Source: Alphaproteobacteria bacterium (GTDB taxonomy: Bacteria; Pseudomonadota; Alphaproteobacteria; SMXQ01). Taken from it: 64,000 nucleotides of DNA. The stretch spans positions 20 through 64,019 of the forward strand of contig JAURLI010000072.1 in assembly GCA_030831315.1 (NCBI GenBank), given 5' to 3'. The translations under genes and the position numbers were made by a program. Shown here in pieces: positions 2,365 to 59,738 of this stretch; position 1 is the first letter of the stretch; the number at the start of each line of letters is the position of its first letter. The notes below the pieces were generated by a model that worked only from the letters and a program-made list of their open reading frames with translations, ran no database searches and was not told the DNA's origin.

Positions 2365-2656
2365 ATCAGTCTCCCATGGCTCGATCTGCCGAACGGGCGT
2401 GACGCTGCGGGGAACCGGAATGATGCTCTTGTGATTGTTTGAGGCTGTTGCCGCCTCTTGATGCCGGCTCCCTGTATCGCCCGACAATCTTCCCTGTCGA
2501 TTGTCGGCGAAAAAACCAGACAAGACAACGAAAGAGCGATCCTCGACCTCAGAAATCGGCCGCAAGGGACTGAATTATATCAGATGTCCGAAAAGACTAT
2601 CTACGCAGGAACGATGATGGGCAGCAATAAGCGGCCCGAAGCCCCCATCGCCCCCG

Positions 2657-4192: not shown

Positions 4193-5158
4193 ATGTCCCG
4201 TTTCTCGCTCCGCAGGCTTTCCCTGCTCGTCACCGTTTCCGCCGCAGGCGCGCTCGCCGCCAGCGGCAGTTCCTTCGCGTTCCCCGATAAGGCCGTCAAC
4301 TTCTTCGTCGGCGCGGGCGCCGGCGGCTCGACAGACGCCGGGGCGCGCATCCTCGCAAAGGCCATGGAAAAGAGCCTCAAGCAGCCGATCGTCGTGCTCA
4401 ACAAGACCGGCGGCGCCGGCTCCAAGGCGCTCGTCCTTCTCAAGAGCGAAAAAGCCGACGGCTACACGCTGGCCTTCGCCTATGCCCACCACGTCACCTT
4501 CCAGCCGCATTACCAGCGCGAAAAGTCACCCTACAAGGCGGCCGATTTCGACTACATCGGTTCGATCACTGCGCCGCGCATGAGTATCGTCGCGCTCAAC
4601 ACCGGTCCTTATGCCGACCTGAAGGAAATGGTCGCGCATTTCCGCAAGGAGAATAAGCCCTTGCGCCTGGCCTATTCCGGCGGCCCGGGCCGGCTGGTGG
4701 GCAACGCGATCTCCCGCGATCTCGGCTACCCGGTCAAGATCATCACCGAAAAGAGCGGCGGCAAGACGCTGCAGAAGCTGCTCGGTGGTCATGTCGATCT
4801 CGTCTATTCGGGCGGTGCCCATTCCAAGTACACGGAGGCCGGAAAGACCAAGGTGGTCGCCACGGTCGATGACGAAAGCGATCCCGATTACCCGAAGGCC
4901 AAGACAATGCCCCAGGTCGGCGTAAACGCGATCACGCCGACGCTGCAATTGCTGCTGGGGCCCAAGGGCATCCCTGCCGACCGCATGAAGGTTCTTTCGG
5001 ATGCCATGAAGGCCGCCCGCAAGGACGCCGAACTGACGAAGCTGTTCGAGAAGAATCTCAAGATGCACATCGACAGCAAGGATGGCGACAAGCTGCGCAG
5101 CTACATGCTCAAGTCGGAGCAGCAGTATCTGTCCCTCATCAAGTCCTACTCCAAGTAA
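4193..5158 (+). CDS. tctC: Tripartite tricarboxylate transporter substrate-binding protein TctC
   Basis: 321 aa. Signal peptide MSRFSLRRLSLLVTVSAAGALAASG, motif VGAGAGGSTDAGARILAKAME, SD caggagg upstream. tctB and tctA follow. Confidence 0.9.
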   Translation: MSRFSLRRLSLLVTVSAAGALAASGSSFAFPDKAVNFFVGAGAGGSTDAGARILAKAMEKSLKQPIVVLNKTGGAGSKALVLLKSEKADGYTLAFAYAHHVTFQPHYQREKSPYKAADFDYIGSITAPRMSIVALNTGPYADLKEMVAHFRKENKPLRLAYSGGPGRLVGNAISRDLGYPVKIITEKSGGKTLQKLLGGHVDLVYSGGAHSKYTEAGKTKVVATVDDESDPDYPKAKTMPQVGVNAITPTLQLLLGPKGIPADRMKVLSDAMKAARKDAELTKLFEKNLKMHIDSKDGDKLRSYMLKSEQQYLSLIKSYSK

Positions 5159-5197: not shown

Positions 5198-5653
5198 ATG
5201 CGTAAGGCCGACATCGTTTCCGCCGGCGTAGTTGCCGTCTTCGGACTGTTCGTCCTGCTGGTCGTGATCCCCGTCTGGGTGCCCGGCCATCTGGAAGGCG
5301 GCGGCTATGGCCTGCGGGCCCAGGACTTCCCTCTGTTTACCGCGATTTCCTTCTCGCTGTTCGCGGCAGGACTGTTCGCCTACAGGGTGTTCTTCACCAA
5401 ACCCGACGAAGCCGATGAAACTCCCATCCCGCCGAAAAGCTGGCGCTTTCTTGCCATCGCCGGCGGTGTGCTGGCGGCCATCACCGTTCTTTTGGATACC
5501 GTCGGGTTCCTGGCCGGCGGCCCCGTGGCCATCGGCGCCTTCATGGTGATGATGGGCGAGCGCCGGCCGCTGCCGGTCGTCAGCCTGTCGCTGGCAGCGC
5601 CGCTCGCCGTGTGGCTGTTCTTCTGGAAATTCCTGGAGTTCCCGCTGCCTTAG
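5198..5653 (+). CDS. tctB: TTT small membrane subunit TctB
   Basis: 151 aa with four hydrophobic segments, positioned between tctC and tctA. Confidence 0.85.
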   Translation: MRKADIVSAGVVAVFGLFVLLVVIPVWVPGHLEGGGYGLRAQDFPLFTAISFSLFAAGLFAYRVFFTKPDEADETPIPPKSWRFLAIAGGVLAAITVLLDTVGFLAGGPVAIGAFMVMMGERRPLPVVSLSLAAPLAVWLFFWKFLEFPLP

Positions 5654-5683
5654 CCGCAAACCGTATCCGTCACAGGGCCATAA

Positions 5684-7204
5684 ATGGACTTTGAAACCAT
5701 CATCGCCGGCTTCGCCAGCAGTCTCACCCTGGCCAACCTGGTCTTCATCTGCCTCGGCGTCATCGTCGGCATCGTCGTCGGCGCTATCCCGGGCCTCAAC
5801 GGTCCGATGGCAATTGCCATCTGCGTCCCGCTGACCTTCGTGCTTGATCCCCTGACCGCCATCGCCTTTCTGATCGGCATCAACAAAGGCGCCAACTACG
5901 GGGGATCGGTCTCCGCCATTCTGATCAATGTTCCCGGCGCGGCGGAGGCCATGGCCACCACCTTCGATGGCTACCCGCTGGCCAGACTGGGAAAGGGTCT
6001 GAAGGCGCTCAAGATGTCGCTTTACGCATCGGTATGGGGCGACACTTTTTCTGATCTCGTTTTGATCCTCGTCGCCGCCCCCTTCGCCATCATGGCTCTC
6101 AAGATGGGGCCATCGGAACTTTTCGCCGTCCTTCTTTTTGCCCTGACCTTCATCGCGGCGCTGGTCGGCTCGTCCGCGACAAAAGGCATCATCGCCGCCA
6201 TCGCCGGTGTATTCCTGTCCACCGTGGGGCTCGACCCCGAAGCCTCGACCCCGCGCATGACATTCGGCCAGCTTGACCTTGAGGAAGGCGTTCCGCTGCT
6301 TGCGCTCATCGTCGGCATGCTGGCGCTGTCGGAAATCCTGATCCAGATCGAGGAAGGCTGGCGGACCCGCCATGCAAAGGAACCCGAACAGCGCGTCTCC
6401 GTGTTCGATGCCAAGGGCGACGACCGCCGCGTAACCTGGCCCGAATTCCGAGGCTGCCTGCGTACCATCTTCCGATCCAGCATCATCGGAACCGTCATCG
6501 GCGCGTTGCCCGGGTTGGGCTCGACGCTCGCGGGCTTCCTTGGGTACGGCGCGGCAAAGCGTGCTTCGAAAACCCCGGACGAATTCGGCAAGGGCAAGCT
6601 CGAGGGCGTGGCAGCGGCGGAAGCCGCCAACAGCGCCGTCGTCGGCGCCAACCTCATTCCGACACTGTCACTTGGGATTCCAGGAAACCTGTCGGCCGCC
6701 ATTTTGCTCGGCGCCTTGATCATTCATGGCGTCCAGCCCGGCCCGATGATCTTCGAGAGCCACGGGGAGTTGATCTACGGAATCTTTGGCGCCATGCTGG
6801 TCGCCAATTTCGCCAACCTCTTGATCGGTCATGGCGGCCTTCGGGTTTTCGCCTATATCATCAGCCTGCCCAACCGCTACATCCACCCCGTGATCGTGCT
6901 GATGTGCTTCGCCGGAACCTATCTGACCACCCAAAGCATGCTGGCAATCGGCGTCATGGTGGGATTCGCCCTACTCGGCTACATCATGCGCAAGCTCGAC
7001 TATTCCATTGTCGCCTTCATCATTGCCTTCATCATGGGACCGATGACCGAAGATGCCCTGCGCCAGACCATGGTTCTGTTCGGTGACCGGCCCACCGAAC
7101 TGCTCACCCGGCCGATCACCATGGTATTCTTCGCGCTGACGGCGTATTCCCTGTGGCGCTTCGTCGTCGGCCGAAAGCCGCAAATTCTGGCGGAGCCGAA
7201 CTGA
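5684..7204 (+). CDS. tctA: TTT large permease TctA
   Basis: 506 aa polytopic membrane protein with typical TctA stretches (GAIPGLNGPMAIAI..., IGALPGLGSTLAGFLGYG..., ANLIPTLSLGIPG). Confidence 0.9.
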   Translation: MDFETIIAGFASSLTLANLVFICLGVIVGIVVGAIPGLNGPMAIAICVPLTFVLDPLTAIAFLIGINKGANYGGSVSAILINVPGAAEAMATTFDGYPLARLGKGLKALKMSLYASVWGDTFSDLVLILVAAPFAIMALKMGPSELFAVLLFALTFIAALVGSSATKGIIAAIAGVFLSTVGLDPEASTPRMTFGQLDLEEGVPLLALIVGMLALSEILIQIEEGWRTRHAKEPEQRVSVFDAKGDDRRVTWPEFRGCLRTIFRSSIIGTVIGALPGLGSTLAGFLGYGAAKRASKTPDEFGKGKLEGVAAAEAANSAVVGANLIPTLSLGIPGNLSAAILLGALIIHGVQPGPMIFESHGELIYGIFGAMLVANFANLLIGHGGLRVFAYIISLPNRYIHPVIVLMCFAGTYLTTQSMLAIGVMVGFALLGYIMRKLDYSIVAFIIAFIMGPMTEDALRQTMVLFGDRPTELLTRPITMVFFALTAYSLWRFVVGRKPQILAEPN

Positions 7205-19578: not shown

Positions 19579-20676
19579 CTACTGGCTTCTTTTCTTCTTC
19601 TTTTTCTTCTTGGCGCAGTACTTGGCGTCGGTGAAGCGTTCGCACTGGGTGCCGCCGCGGGCAAGGGCCGCGTTCATCAGGTCGACAACCGATTTGGGCG
19701 CAGCCACCAGCTCCACCGCCATATCCTGCAATTCCTTGCCGGTCAACGGATCGATGTCGAGGCGGCTCTTCTTGGCCTCCGCCAGAAATTTCGGGTTCTT
19801 CATGGTGGTATCGAAAGCCGTCCTTAGCGCGGCCAGCCGGTCGGCGGGAACATCCCGGTTGGTCAGCAGCGGACGACCGACGGCGGCGACCTTCCCCATC
19901 AGGTCGAGCACCATGCGCTGGTCGGGAGTCTGGGCGAGATCAACGAAGCGCGGCACATCGGGCAGGTCGGGATGCTTCTTCAGGCTGTTCTGGATCAGGA
20001 TCACGATCTTCTTGTCGCGGATCCAATGCGGGTAATCGGCGCGGATCTCATCCCAGGTGGCGCTGCCGCGCACGGCGATTTCGCCGCGCTCGAGCGCTAG
20101 GTCGACTTCGTGGCCGCCCTTGTAGCCGATGATGATCTTGAGCTTGAGACCGAACAGGTGATTGGCAAGCGCGGGGTAAATGAAATTCGCGCCCGTGGCG
20201 CTCGTAGCGCCGACGATCATTTCGCGATCCTTCGCCTGCATCAGCGAAGTAAATCCCGCCGCGCGCCAGGCAACCATGACGCTGACGGGCTGGATCGGCG
20301 TGCCGATCCAGTTGAACTTGGCCGCATCGTACTTGATGCCCCGTTCGCCCAGAGCCTGCGACATGGCGAGCGTCTGGGAGAACGCGCCGATCACGGAACC
20401 GTCGCGGGGCCCGGCGTTGTAAAGCCAGTTGGCGGCGACGCGGCTCGATGCGCCGGGGCGGTTCTGGACGATGACATTCGGTTTGCCCGGAACGTACTGA
20501 CCGAAATGGCGCGCGACCAAGCGCGCGGTCGTATCGTAACTGCCGCCCGCCGAGGTGCCGACAACGATGGTAATTTCCTTCTTCTTGTAGAAATCCTCGA
20601 CCGATTGGGCCACGGCGGGCAGCGAAACAAGCGCGGCAAGAGCCGCAACTGCGGAAACAAGGACGGGTCGGTTCAT
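19579..20676 (-). CDS. TctC/Bug-family binding protein with C-terminal poly-lysine tail (...AKKKKKKKRSQ)
   Basis: 365 aa. Signal peptide MNRPVLVSAVAALAALVSLPAVAQS. Subfamily motif FYKKKEITIVVGTSAGGSYDTTARLVARHFGQYVPGKPNVIVQNRPGAS. The tail is encoded at 19582-19611. Confidence 0.85.
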   Translation of the reverse strand: MNRPVLVSAVAALAALVSLPAVAQSVEDFYKKKEITIVVGTSAGGSYDTTARLVARHFGQYVPGKPNVIVQNRPGASSRVAANWLYNAGPRDGSVIGAFSQTLAMSQALGERGIKYDAAKFNWIGTPIQPVSVMVAWRAAGFTSLMQAKDREMIVGATSATGANFIYPALANHLFGLKLKIIIGYKGGHEVDLALERGEIAVRGSATWDEIRADYPHWIRDKKIVILIQNSLKKHPDLPDVPRFVDLAQTPDQRMVLDLMGKVAAVGRPLLTNRDVPADRLAALRTAFDTTMKNPKFLAEAKKSRLDIDPLTGKELQDMAVELVAAPKSVVDLMNAALARGGTQCERFTDAKYCAKKKKKKKRSQ

Positions 20677-20720: not shown

Positions 20721-22196
20721 TCATTTCGTCAGGAACGCGAGCTTGTCCATCCATTTGGCGCGGATATCATCGGCGTATTCGCGGCTGACCGCGTTCACCT
20801 TCGGGAAATCGTCCTTCCAGTGCCATGGCCGCACGGCGTAGATGATGATGCGTGAATTGGTCATGTCATCGCCCTCGCGTCGCTCGGGCAGAAGCATGGG
20901 ATCGATATAACCGGTCCAGCAGCCGTCGATGATGTCGGTCTGGGTCTTGGGATCCCAACGCGTTGCCATCGCCCACATGACTTCCGCGGGATTGGTGATG
21001 TCGATATCGTCATCGACGATGATCACCATGCGCCCGAGATAGGCGGACGAGCCGCAGCCCGCCGCCACCAGCCCCGCCATCTTGGCGTGGCCCGCGTGCA
21101 TCTGCTTTATCGAGACAACGCGGATGAAGCGCGGCCCCCCGCCAGGCAAGGTGTAAACGCCCTGCACGCCGGGCACGCCCGCCGCTTCCAGTTCGTCCCA
21201 CATGGCGGCCGAGCGGAAATGCCCCGATCCAGCCGTGCCGAACCAGAAGCCCGGCAACGTCGGGCGCACCGGCGGCGCGCCGGTGATGATGGGGTCGTTG
21301 CGATGGTAGATCGCCTTGATTTCCAGCACCGGCTCGGGCCGCGAGTTGGAGGCGTAGTATCCGGGCCATTCGCCGAACGGGCCTTCGCTCGCCGAACGCC
21401 GGTCGGGTGGCGGCATGAAACCTTCAAACACGATCTCGGCGTCGGCGGGAAACGGAATGCCGGTGTGCTTGCCCGCGACGACCTCGATCGGCCGCCCGAT
21501 GCGCGCCCCGGCAAGGGCGTATTCGGAAACCTTTTCCGCCGCGGTAGACGCCGCCGCCGCGCCCAGGACCGGCGCCTGGCCGACGCTGATCACCATCGGA
21601 CAGGCTTCGCCGCGCGCCCAGTATTTCTTGCGGATGACGTCGCCATGCTTGCCCGGCTCGATAAAGGGAACCAGCGTATTCTCGTCCTCGACCTTGACGC
21701 GATAGGTGCCGACATTGACCCAGTCGCTGTCGGGATCTTTCGTCACCACCATGCATTCGGTGCCGATGTAATGCCCGCCATCGCCTTCATGCCAGATGGG
21801 TGCCGGAAAGGCGCGCGCGTTGACCTTTGCCCCTTCCATGACGTTTTCGAGCACCGGCCCCGCCTTCACCGTCGCCGGCGGGATCGGGGCCGAGGTCTTG
21901 CGCCGATGCTTGCGGTACTTCTGCACGGCCTCAAGGCCGGAACCGTTGTCGAACACCTTCGACGAGCGCACGTTGACGGCAACGCGAAAGCCCTTCGGGA
22001 AGCCCTTGATGTTATCGAAAACGATGATCGGCGGGTCCGGGCGTTCGAGGGACAACTCGTACAGCGCGCCGATTTCCATCTTCGTATCGGCGCCTTCAAC
22101 GACTTCGAGATCGTCCATCTCACGCGCCAGATCAAGGCAGGTGCGAAGGTCGCCAAGGGCGGCAAGGCGCCGCGATTCCACGTTATCGCCCGACAT
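20721..22196 (-). CDS. UbiD-family (prFMN-dependent) decarboxylase, paralog A (short class, 491 aa)
   Basis: ORF track 20721..22409 trimmed to MSGDNVESRRLAALGDL.... UbiD motifs WVNVGTYRVKV and SEGPFGEWPGYYAS, with a C-terminus shared with paralogs B, D and F. Confidence 0.9.
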   Translation of the reverse strand: MSGDNVESRRLAALGDLRTCLDLAREMDDLEVVEGADTKMEIGALYELSLERPDPPIIVFDNIKGFPKGFRVAVNVRSSKVFDNGSGLEAVQKYRKHRRKTSAPIPPATVKAGPVLENVMEGAKVNARAFPAPIWHEGDGGHYIGTECMVVTKDPDSDWVNVGTYRVKVEDENTLVPFIEPGKHGDVIRKKYWARGEACPMVISVGQAPVLGAAAASTAAEKVSEYALAGARIGRPIEVVAGKHTGIPFPADAEIVFEGFMPPPDRRSASEGPFGEWPGYYASNSRPEPVLEIKAIYHRNDPIITGAPPVRPTLPGFWFGTAGSGHFRSAAMWDELEAAGVPGVQGVYTLPGGGPRFIRVVSIKQMHAGHAKMAGLVAAGCGSSAYLGRMVIIVDDDIDITNPAEVMWAMATRWDPKTQTDIIDGCWTGYIDPMLLPERREGDDMTNSRIIIYAVRPWHWKDDFPKVNAVSREYADDIRAKWMDKLAFLTK

Positions 22197-22215
22197 CGGG
22201 TGCTCCACTGATTTT

Positions 22216-23268
22216 CTACTGGGACTTCTTCTTTTTCTTTCCGCCGCCAGTATTTTCCGTCGCCACCGCCGCCTTGAAGCGCGCAACCACGGCGGGGGAC
22301 GCAGCCGAAATACCTTCAACCATCTTCTGCAGCTTCGTGCCCTCGATCGGCTGGATTTCGAGCTTGGCGCGGCTCGCATCTGCAAGCAATTTCGGATCGC
22401 CAATCGCACTCATGAAGGCCTTGCGCAGGAGCGCGATCCGTTCCGTTGGCACGCCGGGCGGCGCCATCATGGCGCGGCCGATGGTTTCCGTCGTCGCCAG
22501 CAGCGAGATCACCTGCCGCTCTTCATCGTTGCGAGCATATTCGATCAGGGTCGGAACCTCCTTGAGCATCGGATCACGTTCCAGGGTCATCTGGAACAGA
22601 GGCACGATCTTTTTTTCCTTCACCCACTGCGGGTTCTGAAAAGTATAAGACATCCACGAATTACTGCCCCGCCCCGATACCTCGCCGCTTTCCATCGCCT
22701 TGTTCACTTCCGTGGCGCTGCCATAGCCGAGCACCACCTTGAACTTCGTTCCAAACAGGCGGTTCGCCATCAGCGGATACATTTCCTGGGTCGTACCCGG
22801 CGTCGTCGCCCCGACGGCAATCTGCTTCTTCGTGGCGTCGGTCAGCGTCTTGAAACCTGTGGAGTGCCAGACCACCAGCACATTGGTCGGACTGGCCGTC
22901 GTGCCGATCCAGTTGAATTTGCCGACGTCGTATTTGGCCTTGCCCGGATTAAGAAGCTGGAAAATCGGGATCGTATTGAGTGTGGCGCCAAGCTGTGTCC
23001 CATCCTTCGGCGCGACACTGTAAATGAACGCCGCGACACGGGTCCCCCCCGCGCCCGGCATGTTCTTCGGCACCATGGTGGGGTTTCCGGGAAGATGCTG
23101 GCCGAGATGTCGCGACATCAACCGCGCATAGGCGTCATAGCTGCCGCCGGCACCCGAACCGATGGAAATCGTGATGGTCTTTCCCGCGAAAAACTCGTCT
23201 GCCGAAACGGTCGCGGGCGCAAGCGCGCACGCACAGAGCACGGCAATGGCAGGAATACGATTCGTCAT
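22216..23268 (-). CDS. TctC/Bug-family binding protein with C-terminal poly-lysine tail (...GGGKKKKKSQ)
   Basis: ORF track 22216..23286 trimmed to the ATG at 23268 (AGGGAG upstream). Signal peptide MTNRIPAIAVLCACALAPATVSA. Motif FFAGKTITISIGSGAGGSYDAYARLMSRHLGQHLPGNP. Confidence 0.85.
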   Translation of the reverse strand: MTNRIPAIAVLCACALAPATVSADEFFAGKTITISIGSGAGGSYDAYARLMSRHLGQHLPGNPTMVPKNMPGAGGTRVAAFIYSVAPKDGTQLGATLNTIPIFQLLNPGKAKYDVGKFNWIGTTASPTNVLVVWHSTGFKTLTDATKKQIAVGATTPGTTQEMYPLMANRLFGTKFKVVLGYGSATEVNKAMESGEVSGRGSNSWMSYTFQNPQWVKEKKIVPLFQMTLERDPMLKEVPTLIEYARNDEERQVISLLATTETIGRAMMAPPGVPTERIALLRKAFMSAIGDPKLLADASRAKLEIQPIEGTKLQKMVEGISAASPAVVARFKAAVATENTGGGKKKKKSQ

Positions 23269-24566: not shown

Positions 24567-25358
24567 ATGGCGCGCAAGACCACATCCAAAGCCAAGACCG
24601 CGAAGAAACCACGCACTACCAAGGCGGCGCCCGCAAAGGGCCGGCGCAGCGATCCCCTGAAGGCGCACGAGCAGAAGCTCTTCGATCTCGCCAACGGCCA
24701 GTTCGAATCGGCTGCCTACAAGCGCATGTTCGCGGCCCCTTGGACGAAGAAGGGCGTGCAGCAGTTCTTCATGCAGCATGCCCAGTTCAACCTGAACCGG
24801 CGCGATTGCTGGGGCCATGTCCAGGGCTCCGCCCCCCTCGCCGTAAAGAAAATCGTATGGGAGCACGAGGAAGAGGAACTCGGCGGCGTTGCCGCGCGCG
24901 GCGGCGCCAATCACTACGAGCTTGCGGTTCAGCAGGGAGCATCCTTCGGACTCAAGCCAAAGGACTATTACGACGCTCCGACGATGGATGGGTCCTTCGT
25001 TTCCTTCCAGGCGTGGCTGCACATCGCCCAGCATTCGCACTGGCTCGAGGCCTTCGCCGCCTCTGCCGCGCTCGAATATTCGAACTCGGAAAAGGTCATT
25101 CGCGGTGGCTGCCTGTCGCGCCGCATGGGTGAAAAGCTCCAGAAGGAGCTCGGCATCCCGATGAAGAAACAGTATTCGAACGAGGAACACGTCACCGCCG
25201 ACGTCGCCCACGGCGAATTGCTGATCACCATCGGCCGCATGTACGGCGACACGCAGGAAGCGCGTGACCTAATCATGGCGGGCGCGGTCAAGAGCTGGAC
25301 CGTGGACCGCGTGTTCCGGAACTTCCTCGCCAGCCTGCTGGAGGACTGCGCCCGCTAG
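24567..25358 (+). CDS. TenA/PqqC/CADD-like heme-oxygenase-fold protein (putative di-iron enzyme) with basic N-terminal tail
   Basis: 263 aa, GGGAGAA upstream. Candidate ligand motifs are WEHEEEELGG...NHYEL, ALEYSNSE and EEHVTADVAHGE (H-x3-D-x2-H). Paralog of 52343..53074, more distantly of 39331..40104. Confidence 0.75.
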   Translation: MARKTTSKAKTAKKPRTTKAAPAKGRRSDPLKAHEQKLFDLANGQFESAAYKRMFAAPWTKKGVQQFFMQHAQFNLNRRDCWGHVQGSAPLAVKKIVWEHEEEELGGVAARGGANHYELAVQQGASFGLKPKDYYDAPTMDGSFVSFQAWLHIAQHSHWLEAFAASAALEYSNSEKVIRGGCLSRRMGEKLQKELGIPMKKQYSNEEHVTADVAHGELLITIGRMYGDTQEARDLIMAGAVKSWTVDRVFRNFLASLLEDCAR

Positions 25359-26191
25359 GCGTCCTTCTCTTCCGTCGCGCCGAGTTTGCGCGACAACTCG
25401 CGGGTTACATCCTTGAGGATTCGCGCGGCTTCGCCCGAATAGGACGTGTCGTAGCTGCCGCGCACGCCGATCAAAGTCATGGCGAGGGCGATATGCACGT
25501 CGCGGCCGAATACGGGTGCCGCGATATTCGCGTGATTGGGCGTGCGTTCGCCGATGGCCCGCGTGATGCCGCGCTTGCGCACCTCGTCACGGATCTTAAC
25601 GACCCGTTCCATCGTCATCTGGTCCCTGCCCTCGCGCGCGGCGTTCCATTCCGGAATCTCGCGATCGAGCAACGGCTTGCTCAATTGATCGGATTCGTAG
25701 GCAAGAAACAGGTTGCCGGCCGACGTGGTAAGAAGCGGAAGCACCACGCCTTCGCGGATGCGGATGGGTGTCGACAGGGTCGCATGTTCGCAACGGATCA
25801 CCGTCGGACCGTGGGTGCCCCAGATCGTCAGGGTCGAGACCAGCCCGGTGCGCTGCGACAGGTCGGGCATCGCCGCCATCGCAAGGCGCACGGGATCGAT
25901 GCGGCTGATCGCCGCAAGGCCGAGACGCAGCACCTCTGGTCCCAGATCGTAGCGGCCGGAAATCTCGTCCTGCTCCACCAGCCCACTGTCGACCAGGGCG
26001 CGCAGGTAGCGGTAGGCCCGGCTCGGCGACATATCGGCGGCGGCGGCAACCCGCGTCAGCGTCGTCGGCCCGTCAAAATTCGAGACGACACCAAGCAGAT
26101 GCGCGCCGATCACCAGCGTGCTGTTGCCGCGCGTCTCCGGCGCCTTGGCACGGGGGCGACGGGGTTTCTTGGGAGCGGGCTTGCGGGCCAT
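25355..26191 (-). CDS. IclR-family transcriptional regulator
   Basis: 278 aa. Winged HTH TLTRVAAAADMSPSRAYRYLRALVDSGLVEQDEISGRYDLGP plus an IclR effector domain. Its stop overlaps the convergent 24567..25358 gene by 4 nt (CTAG). Confidence 0.9.
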   Translation of the reverse strand: MARKPAPKKPRRPRAKAPETRGNSTLVIGAHLLGVVSNFDGPTTLTRVAAAADMSPSRAYRYLRALVDSGLVEQDEISGRYDLGPEVLRLGLAAISRIDPVRLAMAAMPDLSQRTGLVSTLTIWGTHGPTVIRCEHATLSTPIRIREGVVLPLLTTSAGNLFLAYESDQLSKPLLDREIPEWNAAREGRDQMTMERVVKIRDEVRKRGITRAIGERTPNHANIAAPVFGRDVHIALAMTLIGVRGSYDTSYSGEAARILKDVTRELSRKLGATEEKDA

Positions 26192-28634: not shown

Positions 28635-30632
28635 ATGAAAGACCTTTACGATCCGTCGGCCATGCTCAATGGCTTCCTCGGCCTGATGACTCCGGCCGGG
28701 ATCGCCCTGATCATCGCCGGCACCGTCGTCTGCTCGATCTTCGCCGCCATGCCCGGCATCGGCACGCTGCTGCTGCTCTCGATGGTTCTGCCCTACGCGA
28801 TGAAGCTCGATCCCTTCCTGTGCATCGCGCTGCTCATCAGCATCGGCGCGGTCGGCGGCACGGCCAGCACGTTTTCGTCCGTCCTGATCGCAGTGCCGGG
28901 CACCGCCGGGTCACAGGCGACGATCCTCGACGGCCACCCGATGGCCAAGCGTGGCGAAGCCGCGCGCGCCTTCGGTGCCGCCTATGTCGGCTCCGCCGTC
29001 GGCGGCCTGTTCGGCGGGCTGGTCTTCGTACTCTCGCTGCCGGTGATGAAGCCGCTGGTCTTCGCGCTGGGATCGCCGGAATTCATGATGCTGGTACTGT
29101 GGGGCCTGTCGGCGGTCGGCGTGCTCTCGGGCAATGCGCCGGTGAAGGGCCTGATGGCGGCGGCACTTGGCCTCGGTCTGTCGCTGATCGGCACCGACGC
29201 GCGCACCGGCATAGAGCGCTTCACCTTCGAAGACTATTACCTGTGGAACGGCATCCACCTCGTCCTCATCGCGCTCGGCATCTTCGCCGTGCCGGAACTG
29301 GTGGACCTTTCCGTGCGTCGCACCTCGGTCGCGGAAGCGGGGCGCATCGGCAAAGGCCAATGGGAAGGCGCCAAGGACGTCTATCGTCATTGGTGGCTGG
29401 TGCTGCGCAGTTCCGTTGTCGGCGTCTGGGTGGGGATGATCCCCGGCCTCGGCTCCTCGGTCGCGGACTGGTTTGCCTATGCCCACGCGGTGCAGACGGA
29501 AAAGAACCCCGAAAAATTCGGCACCGGCGACGTGCGCGGCGTGCTGGCGCCTGAAAGCGCCAACAATGCCAAGGAAGGCGGCGACCTGATCCCCTCGATC
29601 CTGTTCGGCGTTCCCGGCGGCACATCGATGGCGCTGATGCTGACGGCCTTCATTTCCGTCGGCATACAGCCCGGAGAAAAGATGCTGGGCGAACAGTTGC
29701 CCTACCTCTACGCGATGCTGTGGGTGCTGATCATTTCCAACCTTATCGCCACCAGCATCTCGATGGGATTCGCCAACAGCTTCGCCAAGCTGTCGCTGGC
29801 ACCTTTCTACGCCATCGTGCCGATGACGCTGATCTTCTGCGTCGTCGCCGCCTTCAGCGCCAACTACGCCTGGGCCGACTTTCTGGTCCTGGCGATCTTC
29901 TCCGTCGTCGGCATCATCATGAAGCGCCACGGCTGGCCGCGCCCGCCCCTGCTGGTGGCCGTGGTGCTGGGGCCACAGTTGCAGAACTATCTGTGGCTGA
30001 CCGTGGAACGCTATGAGCCGCAGGAGTGGATGCTGCGCCCGGGCGTCATGGCCTTCGCCGCGCTGATCGCCCTTACCGTTGCCGTACCGATCATTCGCAA
30101 TCGCCGGCGCAAGGCGCGCGGCATGCACATGGATCTTGCCAGCGAAGGGCCGAAGGTCGGCCCGAAGGGCGATATCGCTATCGTCGCCTTCTATCTTGCG
30201 CTGGCGGCATTTGCCGTGAGCCAGGCCGTCGCCTGGCCGGCCAAGGCCGCGGTCCCGGTCTACGCCTTTGCCGCCTTCGGCAGCGCCCTTGCGGTCGCAC
30301 AACTGGCACTCAGCCTGATGGCGCTCAGGCGGAGCGGTAACGTCGCTTACGCGCCCACCGACGAAGACCGCGAGAAAGCACGCCGCTTCCGGGAAATCAT
30401 CCTGTGGATCGGGGGTTTGGGTGCCGGCATCATCGTTGTCGGCTTCACCGTGACGCTGTTCCTGTTTCCGCTGCTCTATGCGCGGCGCTACGGCGGCGGC
30501 TGGAAGCTGGCGCTCGGCATGGGCATCAGCGCGGTCGCCATATTGATCGGGATTTTCGACACGCTGATCCACATCATCTGGCCGGAACCGCTCGTCGAGC
30601 TGCTGTGGGACGCGATCTTCCCCGGCAAATAG
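28635..30632 (+). CDS. TTT permease: TctA domain fused to a C-terminal TctB-like four-helix module
   Basis: 665 aa. Residues ~1-500 are colinear with TctA (e.g. MIPGLGSSVADWFAYAHA, DLIPSILFGVPGG). Residues ~505-665 add four hydrophobic helices ending LLWDAIFPGK, comparable to the standalone TctB end FFWKFLEFPLP. Confidence 0.85.
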   Translation: MKDLYDPSAMLNGFLGLMTPAGIALIIAGTVVCSIFAAMPGIGTLLLLSMVLPYAMKLDPFLCIALLISIGAVGGTASTFSSVLIAVPGTAGSQATILDGHPMAKRGEAARAFGAAYVGSAVGGLFGGLVFVLSLPVMKPLVFALGSPEFMMLVLWGLSAVGVLSGNAPVKGLMAAALGLGLSLIGTDARTGIERFTFEDYYLWNGIHLVLIALGIFAVPELVDLSVRRTSVAEAGRIGKGQWEGAKDVYRHWWLVLRSSVVGVWVGMIPGLGSSVADWFAYAHAVQTEKNPEKFGTGDVRGVLAPESANNAKEGGDLIPSILFGVPGGTSMALMLTAFISVGIQPGEKMLGEQLPYLYAMLWVLIISNLIATSISMGFANSFAKLSLAPFYAIVPMTLIFCVVAAFSANYAWADFLVLAIFSVVGIIMKRHGWPRPPLLVAVVLGPQLQNYLWLTVERYEPQEWMLRPGVMAFAALIALTVAVPIIRNRRRKARGMHMDLASEGPKVGPKGDIAIVAFYLALAAFAVSQAVAWPAKAAVPVYAFAAFGSALAVAQLALSLMALRRSGNVAYAPTDEDREKARRFREIILWIGGLGAGIIVVGFTVTLFLFPLLYARRYGGGWKLALGMGISAVAILIGIFDTLIHIIWPEPLVELLWDAIFPGK

Positions 30633-39310: not shown

Positions 39311-39330
39311 GCCGGTATCCTTTCCCTTGC

Positions 39331-41620: not shown

Positions 41621-41734
41621 GACGGCTGCCGGACGCAAATCCAGCCTCTTGAACCCGGTAAAATCCCCGCCTGCACGCCGGCATCTCCCTGTGCGGTCAA
41701 AATGGCGGATTTCTGCTGTTTTTCTGGCCGCCAT

Positions 41735-45065: not shown

Positions 45066-46175
45066 ATGACGGGATACAAGACAGGACAGGTGCGCCTTGG
45101 CTGTTACGCCGGGGCGTTGACCGCGGCGATCGCGCTTGCGGCCCCCGCGGGTGCGCAAGGCTTCGACGCGAAGGCCGAAGCCGCCTTCTTCAAGGGCAAA
45201 ACGGTCACCGTCGTCGTCGGCTTCGGCACCGGCGGTGGCTACGACACCTATGCCCGGCTGCTTGCCCGACACTACGGTCGCCATCTGCTGGGCGCACCCA
45301 ACGTCATTGTCCAGAACATGCCGGGCGCGTCCGGTATCAAGTCGGGCAATTACATTTACGAGGTCGCCCCGCGCGACGGGACGGCCATTTCGCTGTTCAA
45401 CAAGTCGATGCCGACCTACGAGGCGCTTGAACGGCCGGGCGTCCGTTTCAAGTCGAAAGAGCTCAACTGGATCGGGTCGATCGAAGCCGCCAATGCCACG
45501 ATGATCGTGATGGCATCTTCGGGCATCAAGACGATGGCCGATGCGGGCAAGCGCGAGGTCATCCTGGGCGCGGTCAGCGCATCCGGGTCGATGGGTTTCT
45601 ACCCGGCCATGACCAACCGCCTGCTCGGCACGAAATTCAAAATCATCTCGGGCTATCCCGGATCAAAGGCGATCACGCTGGCGATGGAACGCGGCGAGGT
45701 CGAAGGCGTCGGCAGCCCGCCGTGGACGTCCTGGCTCGCCACCACGCCCGAATGGGTGCGCGACAAGAAGATCAACGTGCTGGCGCAGCTCGGCCTCAAG
45801 AAGGATCCGACGATCCCGGGGCCGCTGCTGACCGAACTCGCGGCGGACGAGAAATCCCGCAAGATCATCGAGTTCGTCTCCGCCGACATCGCCATCGGGC
45901 GTCCTGTGGCCGCGCCGCCCAAGGTGCCCGCCGGGCGCGTTCAGGCCATGCGCCGGTCCTTCGATGCCGCGCTTAAGGACCAGAAGCTTCTCGCCGATGC
46001 GATGCGCCTCAAGCTCGATATCGGTCCCGACACGGGCGAAACCGTCGAAAAGCTGGTGCACGCCATGATCGACACGCCGAAAGACATCATCGCCGAGGCC
46101 AAGGACGCGATCGAGCCCAAGGGCCTCGTCAAACGAGAGATCAAGAGCAAGAAGAAAAAGAAGAAAGCCGAATAG
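45066..46175 (+). CDS. TctC/Bug-family binding protein with C-terminal poly-lysine tail (...KSKKKKKKAE)
   Basis: 369 aa, AGGAGGG upstream, signal peptide, motif FFKGKTVTVVVGFGTGGGYDTYARLLARHYGRHLLGAPNVIVQNMPGASG. The K-run is at 46149-46166. Confidence 0.85.
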   Translation: MTGYKTGQVRLGCYAGALTAAIALAAPAGAQGFDAKAEAAFFKGKTVTVVVGFGTGGGYDTYARLLARHYGRHLLGAPNVIVQNMPGASGIKSGNYIYEVAPRDGTAISLFNKSMPTYEALERPGVRFKSKELNWIGSIEAANATMIVMASSGIKTMADAGKREVILGAVSASGSMGFYPAMTNRLLGTKFKIISGYPGSKAITLAMERGEVEGVGSPPWTSWLATTPEWVRDKKINVLAQLGLKKDPTIPGPLLTELAADEKSRKIIEFVSADIAIGRPVAAPPKVPAGRVQAMRRSFDAALKDQKLLADAMRLKLDIGPDTGETVEKLVHAMIDTPKDIIAEAKDAIEPKGLVKREIKSKKKKKKAE

Positions 46176-47214: not shown

Positions 47215-47247
47215 TTGAGGCGGGGCGACCCGCCAAAGGAGGCCACA

Positions 47248-48561: not shown

Positions 48562-48631
48562 TGCATCCGGTGGCCGCGCGCAGGGCGTGGCCACCGTCGT
48601 TTTCTCAATCAGCAAAGTCCGGAACACGGAA

Positions 48632-50133: not shown

Positions 50134-51186
50134 ATGCGCCGGATGAAATTAAGCTCGATTGCCATTATCGCCGCTTTCTGCACGGCCCCAGCAATGGCCG
50201 CCGATTTTTACGCCGGAAAGCAAATCAAGATCGCCATCGGCCTTGGTGCAGGATCGACCTACGACGCCTATGCCCGAACGCTCGTGCGCCACATGGGCCG
50301 CCATATTCCCGGCAGGCCCGAATTCCTTAACGTCAACATGCCCGGTGCCGGCAGCCTGAAGGCCTATAACTACATCTACACGGTTGCCAAGAAGGACGGC
50401 ACCGAATTCGGCACCGGTCACCGCTTCGTCCCCATCATGCCGCTGTTCGGCATCAAGGGGACCCAGTTCGACGGCACCAAATTCGGCTACATCGGCTCGG
50501 CCAACCGGGAAGTCGGCGTCACCATTGCCTGGCACACGTCGCCGGTAAAGACCTTCGATGATCTGAAGAAGCACGAACTGATCATCGGCACGACCGGTGC
50601 GGGCGCCCAGCTCACCAACTTTACCAGCGTGCTCAAGACCGCGCTCGGCGCCAAGCTGAAAGTCGTCTACGGCTACAAGACCACGCGCGAGATCGACCTT
50701 GCCGTCGAGCGTGGCGAAATTCAGGGTCGCGCTGGCGTGTCCTACAATTCGATCAAGAACGCGACGCCGGAATGGCTGAGCCAGAAGAAGATCAGCATCC
50801 TGAACCAGATGGGGCTCAGCAAGCATCCCGAATTGCCGAACGTGCCGAATATCCTCGATCTCGTGACCGCCAAGCTTGACCGCGAGGCGATCGAGCTTCT
50901 GCTGGCACCCTCCGAAATGGGCCGCCCCTTCGTGACGCCCCCGGGCATTCCGGCCGACCGTCTTGCCGCGCTTCGGAGCGCCTTCGACCAGACGATGAAG
51001 GACAAGGCTTTCCTTGCGGACGCTGAAAAGCAGAAAATGGAAATCAACCCGATGACGGGGGCAGAGGTGGAGACCTTGATCAAGCGCATATATGCCACCG
51101 CATCGCCCGAAGTCGTCGCCCGCGCCAAGGCGCTCACGGCCGACGGCATCAACACCTCGAAGAAGAAAAACAAGAAAAGCCAGTAA
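50134..51186 (+). CDS. TctC/Bug-family binding protein with C-terminal lysine-rich tail (...SKKKNKKSQ)
   Basis: 350 aa, AGGAGA upstream. Signal peptide MRRMKLSSIAIIAAFCTAPAMA, motif FYAGKQIKIAIGLGAGSTYDAYARTLVRHMGRHIPGRP. The tail is at 51160-51183. Confidence 0.85.
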   Translation: MRRMKLSSIAIIAAFCTAPAMAADFYAGKQIKIAIGLGAGSTYDAYARTLVRHMGRHIPGRPEFLNVNMPGAGSLKAYNYIYTVAKKDGTEFGTGHRFVPIMPLFGIKGTQFDGTKFGYIGSANREVGVTIAWHTSPVKTFDDLKKHELIIGTTGAGAQLTNFTSVLKTALGAKLKVVYGYKTTREIDLAVERGEIQGRAGVSYNSIKNATPEWLSQKKISILNQMGLSKHPELPNVPNILDLVTAKLDREAIELLLAPSEMGRPFVTPPGIPADRLAALRSAFDQTMKDKAFLADAEKQKMEINPMTGAEVETLIKRIYATASPEVVARAKALTADGINTSKKKNKKSQ

Positions 51187-58621: not shown

Positions 58622-58685
58622 ATTGTTAAGTCTCCCTGTTTGGCCGGCCCCGGAACGGGAACCGGAAGTAAATGACTGGAATCGA

Positions 58686-59738
58686 TTACTGGGCGGCCCG
58701 GCGCAGCCGGTCCAGAAGGTCCTTCGGACGCGAATAGACCGCGTCGAGAAGCTTGTTGATGCGCTCGCCACGCACCGGGTTGATCTCGAGCTTCTGCTTG
58801 TCGGCGTCGGCAAGATAGGCCTTGTCCTTCATGGTCGCATCGAAAGCGTCGCGCAGCACCTTCACGCGGTCTGCAGGGACCCCCGGGGGCGTCAGGAAAG
58901 GCCGCCCCATGACCTGTTCGGCAAAGGCGAGTTCGAACAGCTGCTTGTCTTCGGCTTTCATGGGCAGGTCCACCACCAGCGGCGCATTGGGATAGGCCGG
59001 ATCCTTTTCGAGGCCCATCTGCAGCAGCACCACAACCCTGCCCTCTTTCACCCAGGGCGCGAAGCGGTTGCGGAAATTGGGCGACGAGCCGCCCGAGGTA
59101 TGGGCGTCGACCTCGCCGTTTTCGAGCGCGAGAAGAGCTTCCTGTGACCCCTTGTAGCCTTCGATGACGCGGAATTTCGTCCCGAACACCTCGTTCATCA
59201 GGCGCGGATAGACCGAGGTCGCGGCGCCGCGCCCGGTGGACGACGTCGTCAACTCGCGCCCCTTGAGGTCTTCGAAGGTCTTCACGCCGGTCTTCCCCGC
59301 CACCAGCATCAGACCCAGTTCCTGCTGCGGCGATCCGATCCAGTGAAACTTGCGGCCATCGAACTTGAGCGCCGTCGGCTTCTTTTTCTTCTTTTTGCCC
59401 TGGGGCGCGCCGAGCAGCGGCATGAAGGCGACGTTGCGCTGCAACTGGCCGATCACCGAACCGTCCTGCGCGGCAACGTTGTAAAGATGGTTGGCCGCGA
59501 TTACCCCCGCCGCCCCCACCATGTTGCGCACCAGAAGCTTCGGCTTGCCGGGAATATGATTGGCGATGTGGCGAGCCAGGTGGCGGGCATAGAGGTCATA
59601 GCCGCCGCCGACCGAACCGGAAGCGACCAGCGACATCTGCTTGTCTTTGAAAAATTCGGCCGCGCCGACGGGCGCCCCCAACAGGACGGCCGGCACGAAG
59701 GCGGCAACGGATAGGCGCAAAAGGCGCGAAGACGGCAT
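58686..59738 (-). CDS. TctC/Bug-family binding protein with internal K6 insertion and no lysine tail
   Basis: ORF track 58686..59957 trimmed to the ATG at 59738 (GGGAGGA upstream). Signal peptide MPSSRLLRLSVAAFVPAVLLGAPVGA. Subfamily motif FFKDKQMSLVASGSVGGGYDLYARHLARHIANHIPGKP. Insertion APQGKKKKKKPT encoded at 59379-59396. Confidence 0.85.
   Translation of the reverse strand: MPSSRLLRLSVAAFVPAVLLGAPVGAAEFFKDKQMSLVASGSVGGGYDLYARHLARHIANHIPGKPKLLVRNMVGAAGVIAANHLYNVAAQDGSVIGQLQRNVAFMPLLGAPQGKKKKKKPTALKFDGRKFHWIGSPQQELGLMLVAGKTGVKTFEDLKGRELTTSSTGRGAATSVYPRLMNEVFGTKFRVIEGYKGSQEALLALENGEVDAHTSGGSSPNFRNRFAPWVKEGRVVVLLQMGLEKDPAYPNAPLVVDLPMKAEDKQLFELAFAEQVMGRPFLTPPGVPADRVKVLRDAFDATMKDKAYLADADKQKLEINPVRGERINKLLDAVYSRPKDLLDRLRRAAQ

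What the first reader, a model, noticed from the sequence alone, without database searches (positions are those of the whole stretch)
19582..19611. C-terminal poly-lysine tails (consensus K5-7 x SQ) on four periplasmic TctC-like binding proteins
Four paralogs of one TctC subfamily end in lysine runs directly before the stop. These are ...AKKKKKKKRSQ (19582-19611), ...GGGKKKKKSQ (22219-22239), ...KSKKKKKKAE (46143-46172) and ...SKKKNKKSQ (51160-51183). Canonical TctC (4193..5158) and the EVxFKGK subfamily lack them. The tails are encoded by mixed AAG/AAA codons and three share the terminal SQ, so they look selected rather than slippage artefacts. No hydrophobic segment accompanies them, so they are not sorting signals of the PEP-CTERM or LPXTG type. 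Polycationic tails on soluble periplasmic receptors are something I do not recognise as described. Possibilities include tethering to anionic membrane or LPS surfaces, docking on the permease, or electrostatic capture of polyanionic ligands.
Basis: seen in the sequence. Interest (0 to 1): 0.7.

Follow-up and report, generated by a model that had tools for sequence, protein, structure and literature searches.

The report
Poly-lysine tails on periplasmic binding proteins
Four related nutrient-capturing proteins of an uncultured soil or lake bacterium really do end in runs of 5-7 lysines, and a fifth carries the run in an internal loop; the feature is conserved, arose many times in this family and seems undescribed, and it most likely acts as an electrostatic sticker, which nobody has tested.

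Summary
Four Sec-exported, TctC-fold binding proteins (37-40% identical) end in K5-K7 runs. These are the only lysine runs in all six reading frames of the 64 kb window; simulations expect none.

The runs are selected at the protein level. They are kept in orthologs down to 43-61% identity. Their composition is K404, R11, E0. They use mixed AAG/AAA codons, and independent assemblies agree. About 8% of 50%-identity representatives carry a tail, with about 13 inferred gains. In 858 kb of related loci, all five lysine-tailed ORFs belong to this subfamily.

Tails co-occur with strongly cationic protein bodies (+16 against +2). Every binding protein in the window has pI 9.5-9.9, while the clearly cytoplasmic catabolic enzymes are mostly acidic.

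The terminal "SQ" is not a conserved motif. The best reading is a disordered polycationic appendage that raises adsorption of these "orphan" receptors to anionic envelope surfaces. A plain charge or solubility adaptation is the main rival. No published description was found. It is a new variant of a known kind, of moderate interest.

The parts
19579..20676 (-). K1: Sec-exported TctC-fold binding protein. The tail AKKKKKKKRSQ is encoded at 19582-19614 and follows a conserved C-x10-C loop (CERFTDAKYC).
   Evidence: Translation. All 25 orthologs down to 43% identity carry tails of 5-11 K. AlphaFold pLDDT is 91.5, and the tail is coil with pLDDT about 69.
22216..23268 (-). K2: paralog with tail GGGKKKKKSQ (22219-22248). 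It lies immediately upstream of a UbiD decarboxylase gene and K1.
   Evidence: Translation. The syntenic ortholog in L081 ends GGGKKKSKKARKAQ.
45066..46175 (+). K3: paralog with tail KSKKKKKKAE (46143-46172), downstream of Amidohydro_2 and UbiD genes.
   Evidence: Translation. Representative P0121 ends SKKKKKAKAE. Cluster members are shown.
50134..51186 (+). K4: paralog with tail SKKKNKKSQ (51157-51183), between a UbiD gene and a bicupin plus haem-oxygenase-like pair.
   Evidence: Translation. Twenty of 21 orthologs down to 61% identity carry tails.
58686..59738 (-). K5: fifth paralog, 36-41% identical to K1-K4. It has no tail (ends ...RLRRAAQ) but carries an internal KKKKKK (59379-59396) within a 10-residue loop insertion.
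   Evidence: The insertion is kept in 13 of 15 orthologs at >=72% identity and is absent at <=60%. AlphaFold pLDDT is 91.9, with the loop at about 71.
5198..7204 (+). TctB (5198-5653) and TctA (5684-7204), next to the canonical, tail-less TctC (4193-5158). This is a candidate shared membrane partner.
   Evidence: The partnership is inferred, not shown.
28635..30632 (+). 665-aa TctA with a C-terminal multi-helix extension that looks like TctB, next to an EVxFKGK-type binding protein (27486-28550). This is a second candidate partner.
   Evidence: Pfam TctA, E 8e-113, covering residues 24-440. Sequence. The TctB-like nature of the extension was read by eye only.

Best explanation
The lysine runs are short, disordered polycationic appendages. 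Four are C-terminal tails and one is a surface-loop insertion. They add about +5 to +10 charge to periplasmic binding proteins of a divergent, mostly 'orphan' TctC/Bug-type subfamily that is already very basic.

The runs were probably built by expansion of AAG/AAA codons at tolerant, unstructured positions, and they are kept by selection for positive charge. They are made of lysine rather than arginine, which fits Sec export: arginine is rate-limiting for SecYEG, whereas lysine can be deprotonated in transit.

Most likely the appendages make the receptors adsorb electrostatically to the anionic surfaces lining the periplasm. The main candidate is the phosphatidylglycerol- and cardiolipin-bearing outer face of the inner membrane; peptidoglycan and periplasmic glucans are also possible. 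Adsorption would keep these abundant receptors concentrated near the few shared TctAB permeases. It would be a charge-based counterpart of the lipid anchor on Gram-positive binding proteins, and it should work best at low ionic strength.

Shown: the runs are real, specific to this subfamily, conserved in orthologs, gained repeatedly, selected for charge, linked to a cationic protein body, and attached to a TctC fold with signal peptides.

Inferred: retention of the tail in the mature protein, binding to membrane or other envelope polyanions, and any effect on uptake.
For: Reality and non-randomness:
-.

Conservation:
- K1 orthologs 25/25.
- K4 orthologs 20/21.
- K2 and K3 orthologs.
- K5 loop in 13/15 orthologs.

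Charge selection rather than RNA selection:
- Inside the runs the composition is K404, R11, E0, D1. A purine-rich RNA signal would tolerate GAA/GAG (Glu) codons.

Position independence:
- The one tail-less paralog has an internal K6 insertion.

Repeated gain:
- 12 of 149 representatives carry tails with different junction sequences.
- Parsimony on a neighbour-joining tree gives 13 changes.

Subfamily specificity:
- 5 of 142 subfamily members against 0 of about 2,820 other ORFs in 858 kb of related loci.
- In the window, 4 of 5 paralogs have tails (5 of 5 with the loop), against 0 of 5 other binding proteins.

Co-evolution with body charge:
- Mean body charge is +16 for tailed proteins against +2 for untailed, p = 2.5e-21. 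For representatives only it is +13.7 against +2.8, p = 6e-6.
- Within the K4 clade, tail-less P0444 has a body charge of -4 while its tailed sibling P0443 has +25.

Orphan status:
- Only 5 of 80 loci have a TctA gene within 6 kb.

Fold and disorder:
- Foldseek gives TphC/TBP/Bug27 at probability 1.0.
- A profile search against PDB sequences hits 7ndr at E = 5.6e-12.
- The tail is predicted as coil with lower pLDDT.

Literature:
- Sec substrates prefer Lys over Arg (PMC9110029).
- Freshwater microbes show a basic shift that is sharpest in secreted proteins (PMC6706942).
Against: - No experiment or computation here shows binding to lipids, peptidoglycan or TctAB.
- The tail could be removed after export.
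- The link with a globally cationic body fits a plain charge or solubility adaptation with no binding partner equally well.
- Other basic binding proteins in the same window (canonical TctC, the EVxFKGK type, an ABC binding protein) manage without tails.
- Most subfamily members (about 92%) have no tail, so the tail is not needed for the basic transport function.
- The background in the subfamily-specificity test is mostly cytoplasmic proteins.
- Cytoplasmic proteins in the window also carry K/A/P-rich N-terminal extensions. This hints at a lineage-wide tendency to make lysine-rich termini.
- The habitat is guessed from the names of related MAGs only.
Confidence: 0.4

Rival explanations
1. Charge ballast without a binding partner. 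The tails and the loop are simply the cheapest mutational route (codon-repeat expansion in disordered ends) to raise net positive charge. They would be part of a lineage-wide basic shift of secreted proteins that improves solubility, colloidal stability or Donnan retention in a dilute habitat.
For: - Tails track the cationic body charge.
- All ten binding proteins in the window have pI 9.5-9.9, while the catabolic enzymes are mostly pI 5.3-6.7.
- There is no conserved motif or fixed length.
- A basic shift that is strongest in secreted proteins is documented for freshwater microbes (PMC6706942).
- Polyionic tags are known to enhance solubility (title of PMC6027335).
Against: - Within the window, tails are confined to one subfamily; five other equally basic binding proteins lack them.
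- Clustering 5-10 charges in one flexible run is what polybasic adhesion motifs do. Spreading the charges over the surface would serve solubility as well.
- The freshwater habitat is not established.
Confidence: 0.3
2. Ligand capture. The flexible cationic tail pre-concentrates or 'fly-casts' anionic substrates (aromatic di- or tri-carboxylates, humic-type polyanions) towards the binding cleft.
For: - The genes sit next to UbiD and Amidohydro_2 decarboxylases, bicupin dioxygenases and protocatechuate pathway genes, which implies aromatic carboxylate substrates.
- The closest solved structures bind terephthalate.
Against: - Homologs in similar gene contexts, including a cultured Neorhizobium relative next to UbiX, lack tails.
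- Binding proteins of this fold bind ligands in a defined cleft.
- The position of the run (C-terminus or loop) is not fixed relative to the cleft.
- There is no evidence of polymeric substrates.
Confidence: 0.1
3. Expression or stability signal. C-terminal lysines protect against C-terminus-recognising proteases or improve translation termination, and so raise the level of these abundant proteins.
For: Lys and Arg are enriched at bacterial C-termini, and C-terminal Lys raises expression, partly through slower degradation (PMC7246954).
Against: - That effect concerns the last one or two residues. In the window the last residues are SQ or AE, not K.
- Runs of 5-11 K are far longer than that effect needs.
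- K5's run is internal.
- It does not explain the co-evolving body charge.
Confidence: 0.08
4. Non-functional by-product. The runs are neutral slippage expansions, an RNA-level purine-rich element (for example a translation enhancer for the downstream gene), or an assembly artefact.
For: - Tail length varies among relatives, from 3 to 12 K.
- AAA use is slightly raised in the runs, 30% against 17%, p = 0.08.
- Three of the tails lie within 7 to about 55 nt of the next gene's start.
Against: - The runs are kept across orthologs down to 43% identity.
- There are zero Glu among 437 run positions, although Glu codons are purine-rich.
- The run also occurs internally in K5.
- Codons are mixed and independent assemblies agree.
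- Simulations expect 0.0 such runs.
Confidence: 0.05

Closest known systems
TctC/Bug periplasmic solute receptors of tripartite tricarboxylate transporters (for example TphC/TBP for terephthalate, BugD, Bug27, AdpC, MatC)
   Same: - Same two-domain fold (Foldseek probability 1.0, target-normalised TM-score about 0.8).
- Profile matches to these PDB chains.
- Signal peptide present.
- 'Orphan' genes placed next to catabolic enzymes rather than tctAB, as the TTT review describes for Bug proteins (PMC5812351).
   Different: - Only 16-21% identical to solved members.
- K1-K4 fall below Pfam's TctC threshold.
- They carry polycationic tails or a loop, and net charge of +14 to +17.
- No tail is mentioned in the TTT review.
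Polybasic membrane-targeting tails of eukaryotic peripheral proteins (for example the hexalysine C-terminus of K-Ras4B, or the MARCKS effector domain). Recalled from general knowledge, not tested here.
   Same: A disordered run of about 6 or more lysines at or near a terminus. Position and exact sequence are loosely constrained and charge is conserved. The expected behaviour is salt-sensitive adsorption to acidic phospholipids.
   Different: - The eukaryotic examples act on the cytoplasmic leaflet and usually cooperate with a lipid anchor.
- Here there is no lipobox, CAAX box or hydrophobic segment, and the compartment is the bacterial periplasm.
- Lipid binding is not shown.
Lipoprotein-anchored substrate-binding proteins of Gram-positive bacteria (general knowledge)
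   Same: The proposed outcome is the same: the receptor is kept at the membrane surface next to its permease.
   Different: The Gram-positive anchor is a covalent N-terminal lipid attached through a lipobox. Here the attachment would be non-covalent, C-terminal and electrostatic. No lipobox is seen in K1-K5 (by eye).
General C-terminal Lys/Arg enrichment in bacterial proteins (Weber et al. 2020, PMC7246954)
   Same: Positive residues are favoured at C-termini.
   Different: That bias concerns positions -1 and -2 and occurs in all protein classes. Here the runs are 5-11 K, specific to one subfamily, often followed by non-basic residues, and once internal.
Engineered poly-lysine stretches used to stall SecYEG translocation (cited in PMC9110029)
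   Same: Consecutive lysines in a Sec substrate.
   Different: Those are artificial translocation blocks. [quoted passage not shown] Here the runs are natural, conserved and presumably exported.

Membership tests
TctC/Bug family (Pfam PF03401), TTT solute receptors | Score above Pfam's gathering threshold (27 bits) | tested here: not met
   K1 16.8 bits, K2 23.8, K3 24.5, K4 no hit. The canonical TctC at 4193-5158 scores 97.9. The database's precomputed annotation lists PF03401 for K5 (P0270) and for many homologs.
TctC/Bug family (Pfam PF03401), TTT solute receptors | Two-domain periplasmic binding-protein fold matching solved TctC/Bug structures | tested here: met
   AlphaFold models have pLDDT 91.9 (K5) and 91.5 (K1). 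The top 17 Foldseek hits for the K5 model are all TTT receptors (8hk9, 4x9t, 7ndr, 2qpq, 6hke, 2dvz, 2f5x, 5oei), with E 1e-16 to 5e-12. The profile search against PDB sequences returns only TTT receptors, best E 5.6e-12.
TctC/Bug family (Pfam PF03401), TTT solute receptors | N-terminal export signal (periplasmic location) | tested here: met
   Read directly from the sequence: hydrophobic N-termini ending in AxA-type sites (AVA-QS, VSA-DE, AGA-QG, AMA-AD, VGA-AE), with no twin-arginine consensus and no lipobox. No signal-peptide predictor was available.
TctC/Bug family (Pfam PF03401), TTT solute receptors | Works with TctA/TctB membrane subunits | not testable with these tools
   TctBA (5198-7204) and a 665-aa TctA (28635-30632) are in the window, but not next to K1-K5. 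Only 5 of 80 related loci have a TctA gene within 6 kb. That matches 'orphan' Bug genes but does not prove a partnership.
Polybasic membrane-targeting motif | Disordered run of about 5 or more basic residues with charge, not sequence, conserved | tested here: met
Polybasic membrane-targeting motif | Salt-sensitive binding to acidic phospholipids | not testable with these tools
   This needs liposome or fractionation experiments.
PEP-CTERM / LPXTG-type C-terminal sorting signals | Signature motif followed by a hydrophobic helix and then a basic cluster | tested here: not met
   There is no hydrophobic stretch or motif before the lysine runs. The basic run follows an amphipathic C-terminal helix or a Cys loop.
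Lpp-type covalent attachment to peptidoglycan through a C-terminal lysine | Lysine as the very last residue, used by an L,D-transpeptidase | tested here: not met
   The window tails end in SQ, SQ, AE and SQ. Family-wide, 18 of 59 distinct tails do end in K. The presence and specificity of transpeptidases were not tested.

The most novel reading that the evidence does not exclude
Polycationic tails (or loops) may turn soluble periplasmic receptors into surface-adsorbed ones. This would be a non-covalent, salt-tunable anchor to the anionic inner-membrane face, or even covalent capture on peptidoglycan through lysine side chains. It would have evolved repeatedly in orphan TTT receptors of dilute-water Alphaproteobacteria to speed delivery to scarce shared permeases. 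As a by-product, these proteins would be natural Sec substrates that carry consecutive lysines, which the Sec field regards as translocation blocks.
Probability: 0.3. Interest if true: 0.65.

Novelty: new variant of a known kind. Interest (0 to 1): 0.45.

Why it matters
Binding-protein-dependent secondary transporters (TTT and TRAP) are assumed to use freely diffusing periplasmic receptors. How dozens of orphan receptors share one or two permeases is an open question.

A conserved, convergently gained polycationic appendage points to a simple physical answer: electrostatic confinement at the membrane. It is directly testable with tail deletions, liposome binding and uptake assays at different ionic strengths.

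The appendage also offers natural test substrates for how SecYEG handles runs of lysines. It is a clear case of the 'basic shift' of secreted proteins in low-salt habitats. If it turns out to be only charge ballast, it is still a neat example of repeat expansion as an adaptive shortcut, but of modest importance.

Tried and rejected
- **Sequencing or assembly artefact: rejected.** Codons are mixed, no A-run exceeds 5, and independent assemblies give the same tails.
- **Chance: rejected.** Simulations give 0.0 runs against 4 observed.
- **A conserved 'K5-7 x SQ' motif: rejected.** The residues after the run vary, and orthologs of K1 and K2 in a sister genome end in SG and AQ.
- **RNA-level purine element or translational coupling: rejected as the main cause.** No Glu occurs in the runs, and K5's run is internal.
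- **A tail compensating for an acidic body: rejected.** The bodies are strongly basic.
- **Tail linked to orphan status: uninformative.** Nearly all subfamily members are orphans.
- **Acidic docking patch on TctA/TctB:** reading the sequences gave nothing convincing.
- **Distance between K5's loop and the C-terminus in the model: could not be done.** Model coordinates are not exposed to scripts.
- **Naming the organism:** only 'uncultured Alphaproteobacteria/Pseudomonadota MAG' labels were found among close relatives.
- **Cultured relatives carrying a tail: none found.** The plasmid collection holds only relatives at 30-39% identity, and no alignment reaches the tail. The one relative translated, from Neorhizobium, has no tail.
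- **Literature: nothing on lysine tails of binding proteins**.

Full report

Yes.
- K1, 19579-20676(-), ends ...YCAKKKKKKKRSQ*.
- K2, 22216-23268(-), ends ...GGGKKKKKSQ*.
- K3, 45066-46175(+), ends ...KSKKKKKKAE*.
- K4, 50134-51186(+), ends ...SKKKNKKSQ*.

The lysine codons are mixed, 21 AAG and 9 AAA. Outside the runs the window uses 17% AAA, and the difference is not significant (p = 0.08). No A-run exceeds five bases, so homopolymer error is not an issue. Proteins more than 90% identical from other assemblies carry the same tails with only point differences, such as ...KKKKKKKKSQ and ...AAKKKKKKKSQ.

A six-frame scan finds only five lysine-rich runs in the whole 64 kb. Two hundred first-order Markov simulations gave on average 0.0 runs of K>=5, against four observed.

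**2.

The fifth run, KKKKKK at 59379-59396(-), lies inside a fifth paralog, K5 (58686-59738(-)). K5 is 36-41% identical to K1-K4 and has no tail; it ends ...RLRRAAQ*. In the alignment its hexalysine is a 10-residue insertion in a loop that is short in the other four. So all five members of this subfamily in the window carry a lysine run, and nothing else in the window does.

**3. What the proteins are**

K1-K4 score below Pfam's TctC gathering cut-off: 16.8, 23.8 and 24.5 bits for K1-K3, and no hit for K4. The canonical TctC at 4193-5158 scores 97.9 bits.

The fold is nevertheless clear:
- A profile of the five paralogs matches only TTT receptors among PDB sequences, with 7ndr TphC at E = 5.6e-12.
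- AlphaFold models are confident, pLDDT 91.9 for K5 and 91.5 for K1.
- The 17 best Foldseek matches for the K5 model are all TctC/Bug structures. The terephthalate binders rank near the top: 8hk9 first, 4x9t second and 7ndr third.

All five have N-terminal hydrophobic signal sequences with AxA-type cleavage sites. None shows a twin-arginine motif or a lipobox. This was read from the sequence, because no predictor was available.

The tail of K1 is modelled as coil with reduced confidence. The K5 loop also has reduced confidence.

The family is large. The profile finds 4,654 clusters (at 50% identity) at E <= 1e-30. By record titles, the related genome loci are almost all from uncultured Alphaproteobacteria: Xanthobacteraceae, Beijerinckiaceae, Hyphomicrobiales and Rhodospirillaceae MAGs.

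**4. Gene context**

The K genes sit among aromatic-acid catabolic genes:
- six UbiD-type decarboxylase genes;
- an Amidohydro_2 decarboxylase-type gene;
- six cupin or bicupin genes, of the broad kind that includes gentisate dioxygenases;
- three haem-oxygenase-like iron enzymes;
- protocatechuate 3,4-dioxygenase subunit genes, two CoA-transferase genes and a gene whose cluster members are named 3-carboxymuconate cycloisomerase.

The arrangement K2-UbiD-K1 with divergent bicupin and haem-oxygenase-like genes is syntenic in a relative 76% identical.

TctB/TctA (5198-7204) and a 665-aa TctA (28635-30632) are in the window. They lie next to other, tail-less binding proteins. In 80 related loci only 5 have a TctA gene within 6 kb. 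These are therefore 'orphan' receptors, as the TTT review describes for Bug proteins (PMC5812351).

**5. Are the runs selected?**

Conservation in orthologs:
- K1: all 25 orthologs, down to 43% identity, carry tails of 5-11 lysines after a conserved C-x10-C loop. More distant relatives keep the loop and end in short basic stubs such as CAKK or CVKKKR, which look like seeds for expansion.
- K4: 20 of 21 orthologs down to 61% identity carry tails.
- K2: the ortholog in the sister genome ends GGGKKKSKKARKAQ.
- K3: the representative ends SKKKKKAKAE.
- K5: the loop insertion is kept, with variable length, in 13 of 15 orthologs at >=72% identity. It is absent from homologs at <=60%.

Composition of the runs:
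- In 59 distinct tails the runs contain K404, R11, G5, N4, A3, E0 and D1.
- The absence of glutamate, whose codons are as purine-rich as lysine's, argues for selection on protein charge rather than on an RNA element.
- The 37:1 excess of K over R contrasts with 992:807 in the protein bodies. This fits Sec export, in which arginine is rate-limiting and lysine can cross deprotonated (PMC9110029).

There is no conserved ending. The residues after the run are: none 18, AE 6, SS 5, SQ 4. The 'x-SQ' consensus is therefore local to this genome.

**6. Distribution**

Among the best 149 representatives at 50% identity, retrieved with a profile from which the tails had been removed, 12 (8%) have lysine tails, and their junction sequences differ.

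On a neighbour-joining tree built without the termini, parsimony needs 13 changes from a tail-less root to explain 16 tailed leaves among 153. The deep branches are poorly resolved, so the count is rough. Several independent gains are still clear.

In 858 kb of related loci, 5 of 2,962 ORF segments end in lysine runs, and all 5 belong to this subfamily, which has 142 members there. In the window, the five other binding proteins (canonical TctC, three EVxFKGK-type and an ABC type) have no tails.

**7. An unexpected correlate**

Tailed proteins have very cationic bodies. With the signal peptide and the last 15 residues removed, mean net charge is +16 for tailed proteins against +2 for untailed ones (p = 2.5e-21). 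Among representatives only, it is +13.7 against +2.8 (p = 6e-6).

Within the K4 clade, the single tail-less ortholog (P0444) has a body charge of -4, while its sibling P0443 has +25 and a tail.

In the window every binding protein has pI 9.5-9.9. The catabolic enzymes with clear starts mostly lie at pI 5.3-6.7. Some other cytoplasmic proteins there are basic, partly because of uncertain starts or lysine-rich N-terminal extensions.

So the tails are the sharp end of a clade-level cationisation of periplasmic receptors. They do not compensate for acidic bodies. A basic shift that is strongest in secreted proteins has been reported for freshwater against marine microbes (PMC6706942). Several related MAGs have names suggesting lakes and soils, but the habitat of this organism is not established.

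**8. Mechanism**

The data support a charge-selected, position-tolerant, disordered polycation.

The reading I favour (confidence about 0.4) is electrostatic adsorption to anionic envelope surfaces, chiefly the outer face of the inner membrane. This would keep orphan receptors near the scarce shared permeases. It is analogous in effect to lipid-anchored binding proteins, and in physics to eukaryotic polybasic tails.

The main rival (about 0.3) is charge ballast with no binding partner. Ligand capture (0.1), a C-terminal stability or termination effect (0.08; PMC7246954) and neutral or RNA-level explanations (0.05) fit less well. The reasons are given under the rival explanations. None of the binding steps is shown.

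**9. Novelty**

Four full-text searches and the TTT review gave no description of lysine tails on periplasmic binding proteins. [quoted passage not shown]

I file this as a new variant of a known kind: TctC/Bug-fold receptors with a polycationic appendage. It is of moderate interest because it is real, conserved, convergent and easily testable, but the mechanism is unproven and could be mundane.

Noticed in passing
window 58686-59738 (-), run at 59379-59396: A fifth paralog of the tailed subfamily has no tail. It carries an internal KKKKKK in a 10-residue loop insertion, conserved in 13 of 15 close orthologs.
   Followed up: yes
whole window; binding-protein genes at 1042-2370, 4193-5158, 19579-20676, 22216-23268, 27486-28550, 45066-46175, 47245-48561, 50134-51186, 57584-58813, 58686-59738: Every periplasmic binding protein in the window has pI 9.5-9.9 (net +13 to +22), while the catabolic enzymes are mostly pI 5.3-6.7. 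This is a compartment-wide basic shift.
   Followed up: partly
window 1042-2370 (-) and 47245-48561 (+), last ~85 codons; also P0129, P0132, P0133 and others: Two EVxFKGK-type binding proteins, and about 15 of 149 representatives of the tailed subfamily (420-435 aa), carry an extra lysine-rich C-terminal domain of about 85 residues. It has two conserved cysteines (...GMxCxhxY......hxC[KDNS]*) and no Pfam match. It may be an alternative C-terminal add-on to the lysine tail.
   Followed up: partly
window 20721-22209, 33986-35455, 37721-39640, 40157-41734 (all -), 43394-45013, 48518-50110 (+): There are six UbiD-family decarboxylase paralogs in 64 kb, each near cupin or bicupin genes (six in total), three haem-oxygenase-like iron enzymes and an Amidohydro_2 gene. 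I did not recognise a UbiX prenyltransferase gene in the window. This is an unusually dense aromatic-acid decarboxylation and ring-cleavage island.
   Followed up: partly
window 28635-30632 (+): A 665-aa TctA whose Pfam TctA domain ends at residue 440. About 225 residues with several hydrophobic helices follow, and they look like a fused TctB. The same 664-aa form is conserved in a relative (L081).
   Followed up: no
window 24567-25358 (+) and 25355-26191 (-); L081 5115-6038: Cytoplasmic proteins also carry Lys/Ala/Pro-rich N-terminal extensions. The haem-oxygenase-like protein starts MARKTTSKAKTAKKPRTTKAAPAKGRR, and the IclR regulator starts MARKPAPKKPRRPRAKAP. The ORF in L081 corresponding to the haem-oxygenase-like gene begins with an even longer AK-rich stretch, though the called gene there is shorter. 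This hints at a lineage tendency towards lysine-rich termini.
   Followed up: no
window 19615-19650 (-): The K1 clade has a conserved C-x10-C loop (CERFTDAKYC), probably a disulfide, directly before the tail. More distant relatives keep the loop but end in short stubs (CAKK, CVKKKR), which suggests the tail grew from a short basic end.
   Followed up: partly
window 19588-19590 (-): The single Arg in K1's tail is an AGA codon, one substitution from AAA. Near-identical sequences from other assemblies have Lys there.
   Followed up: yes
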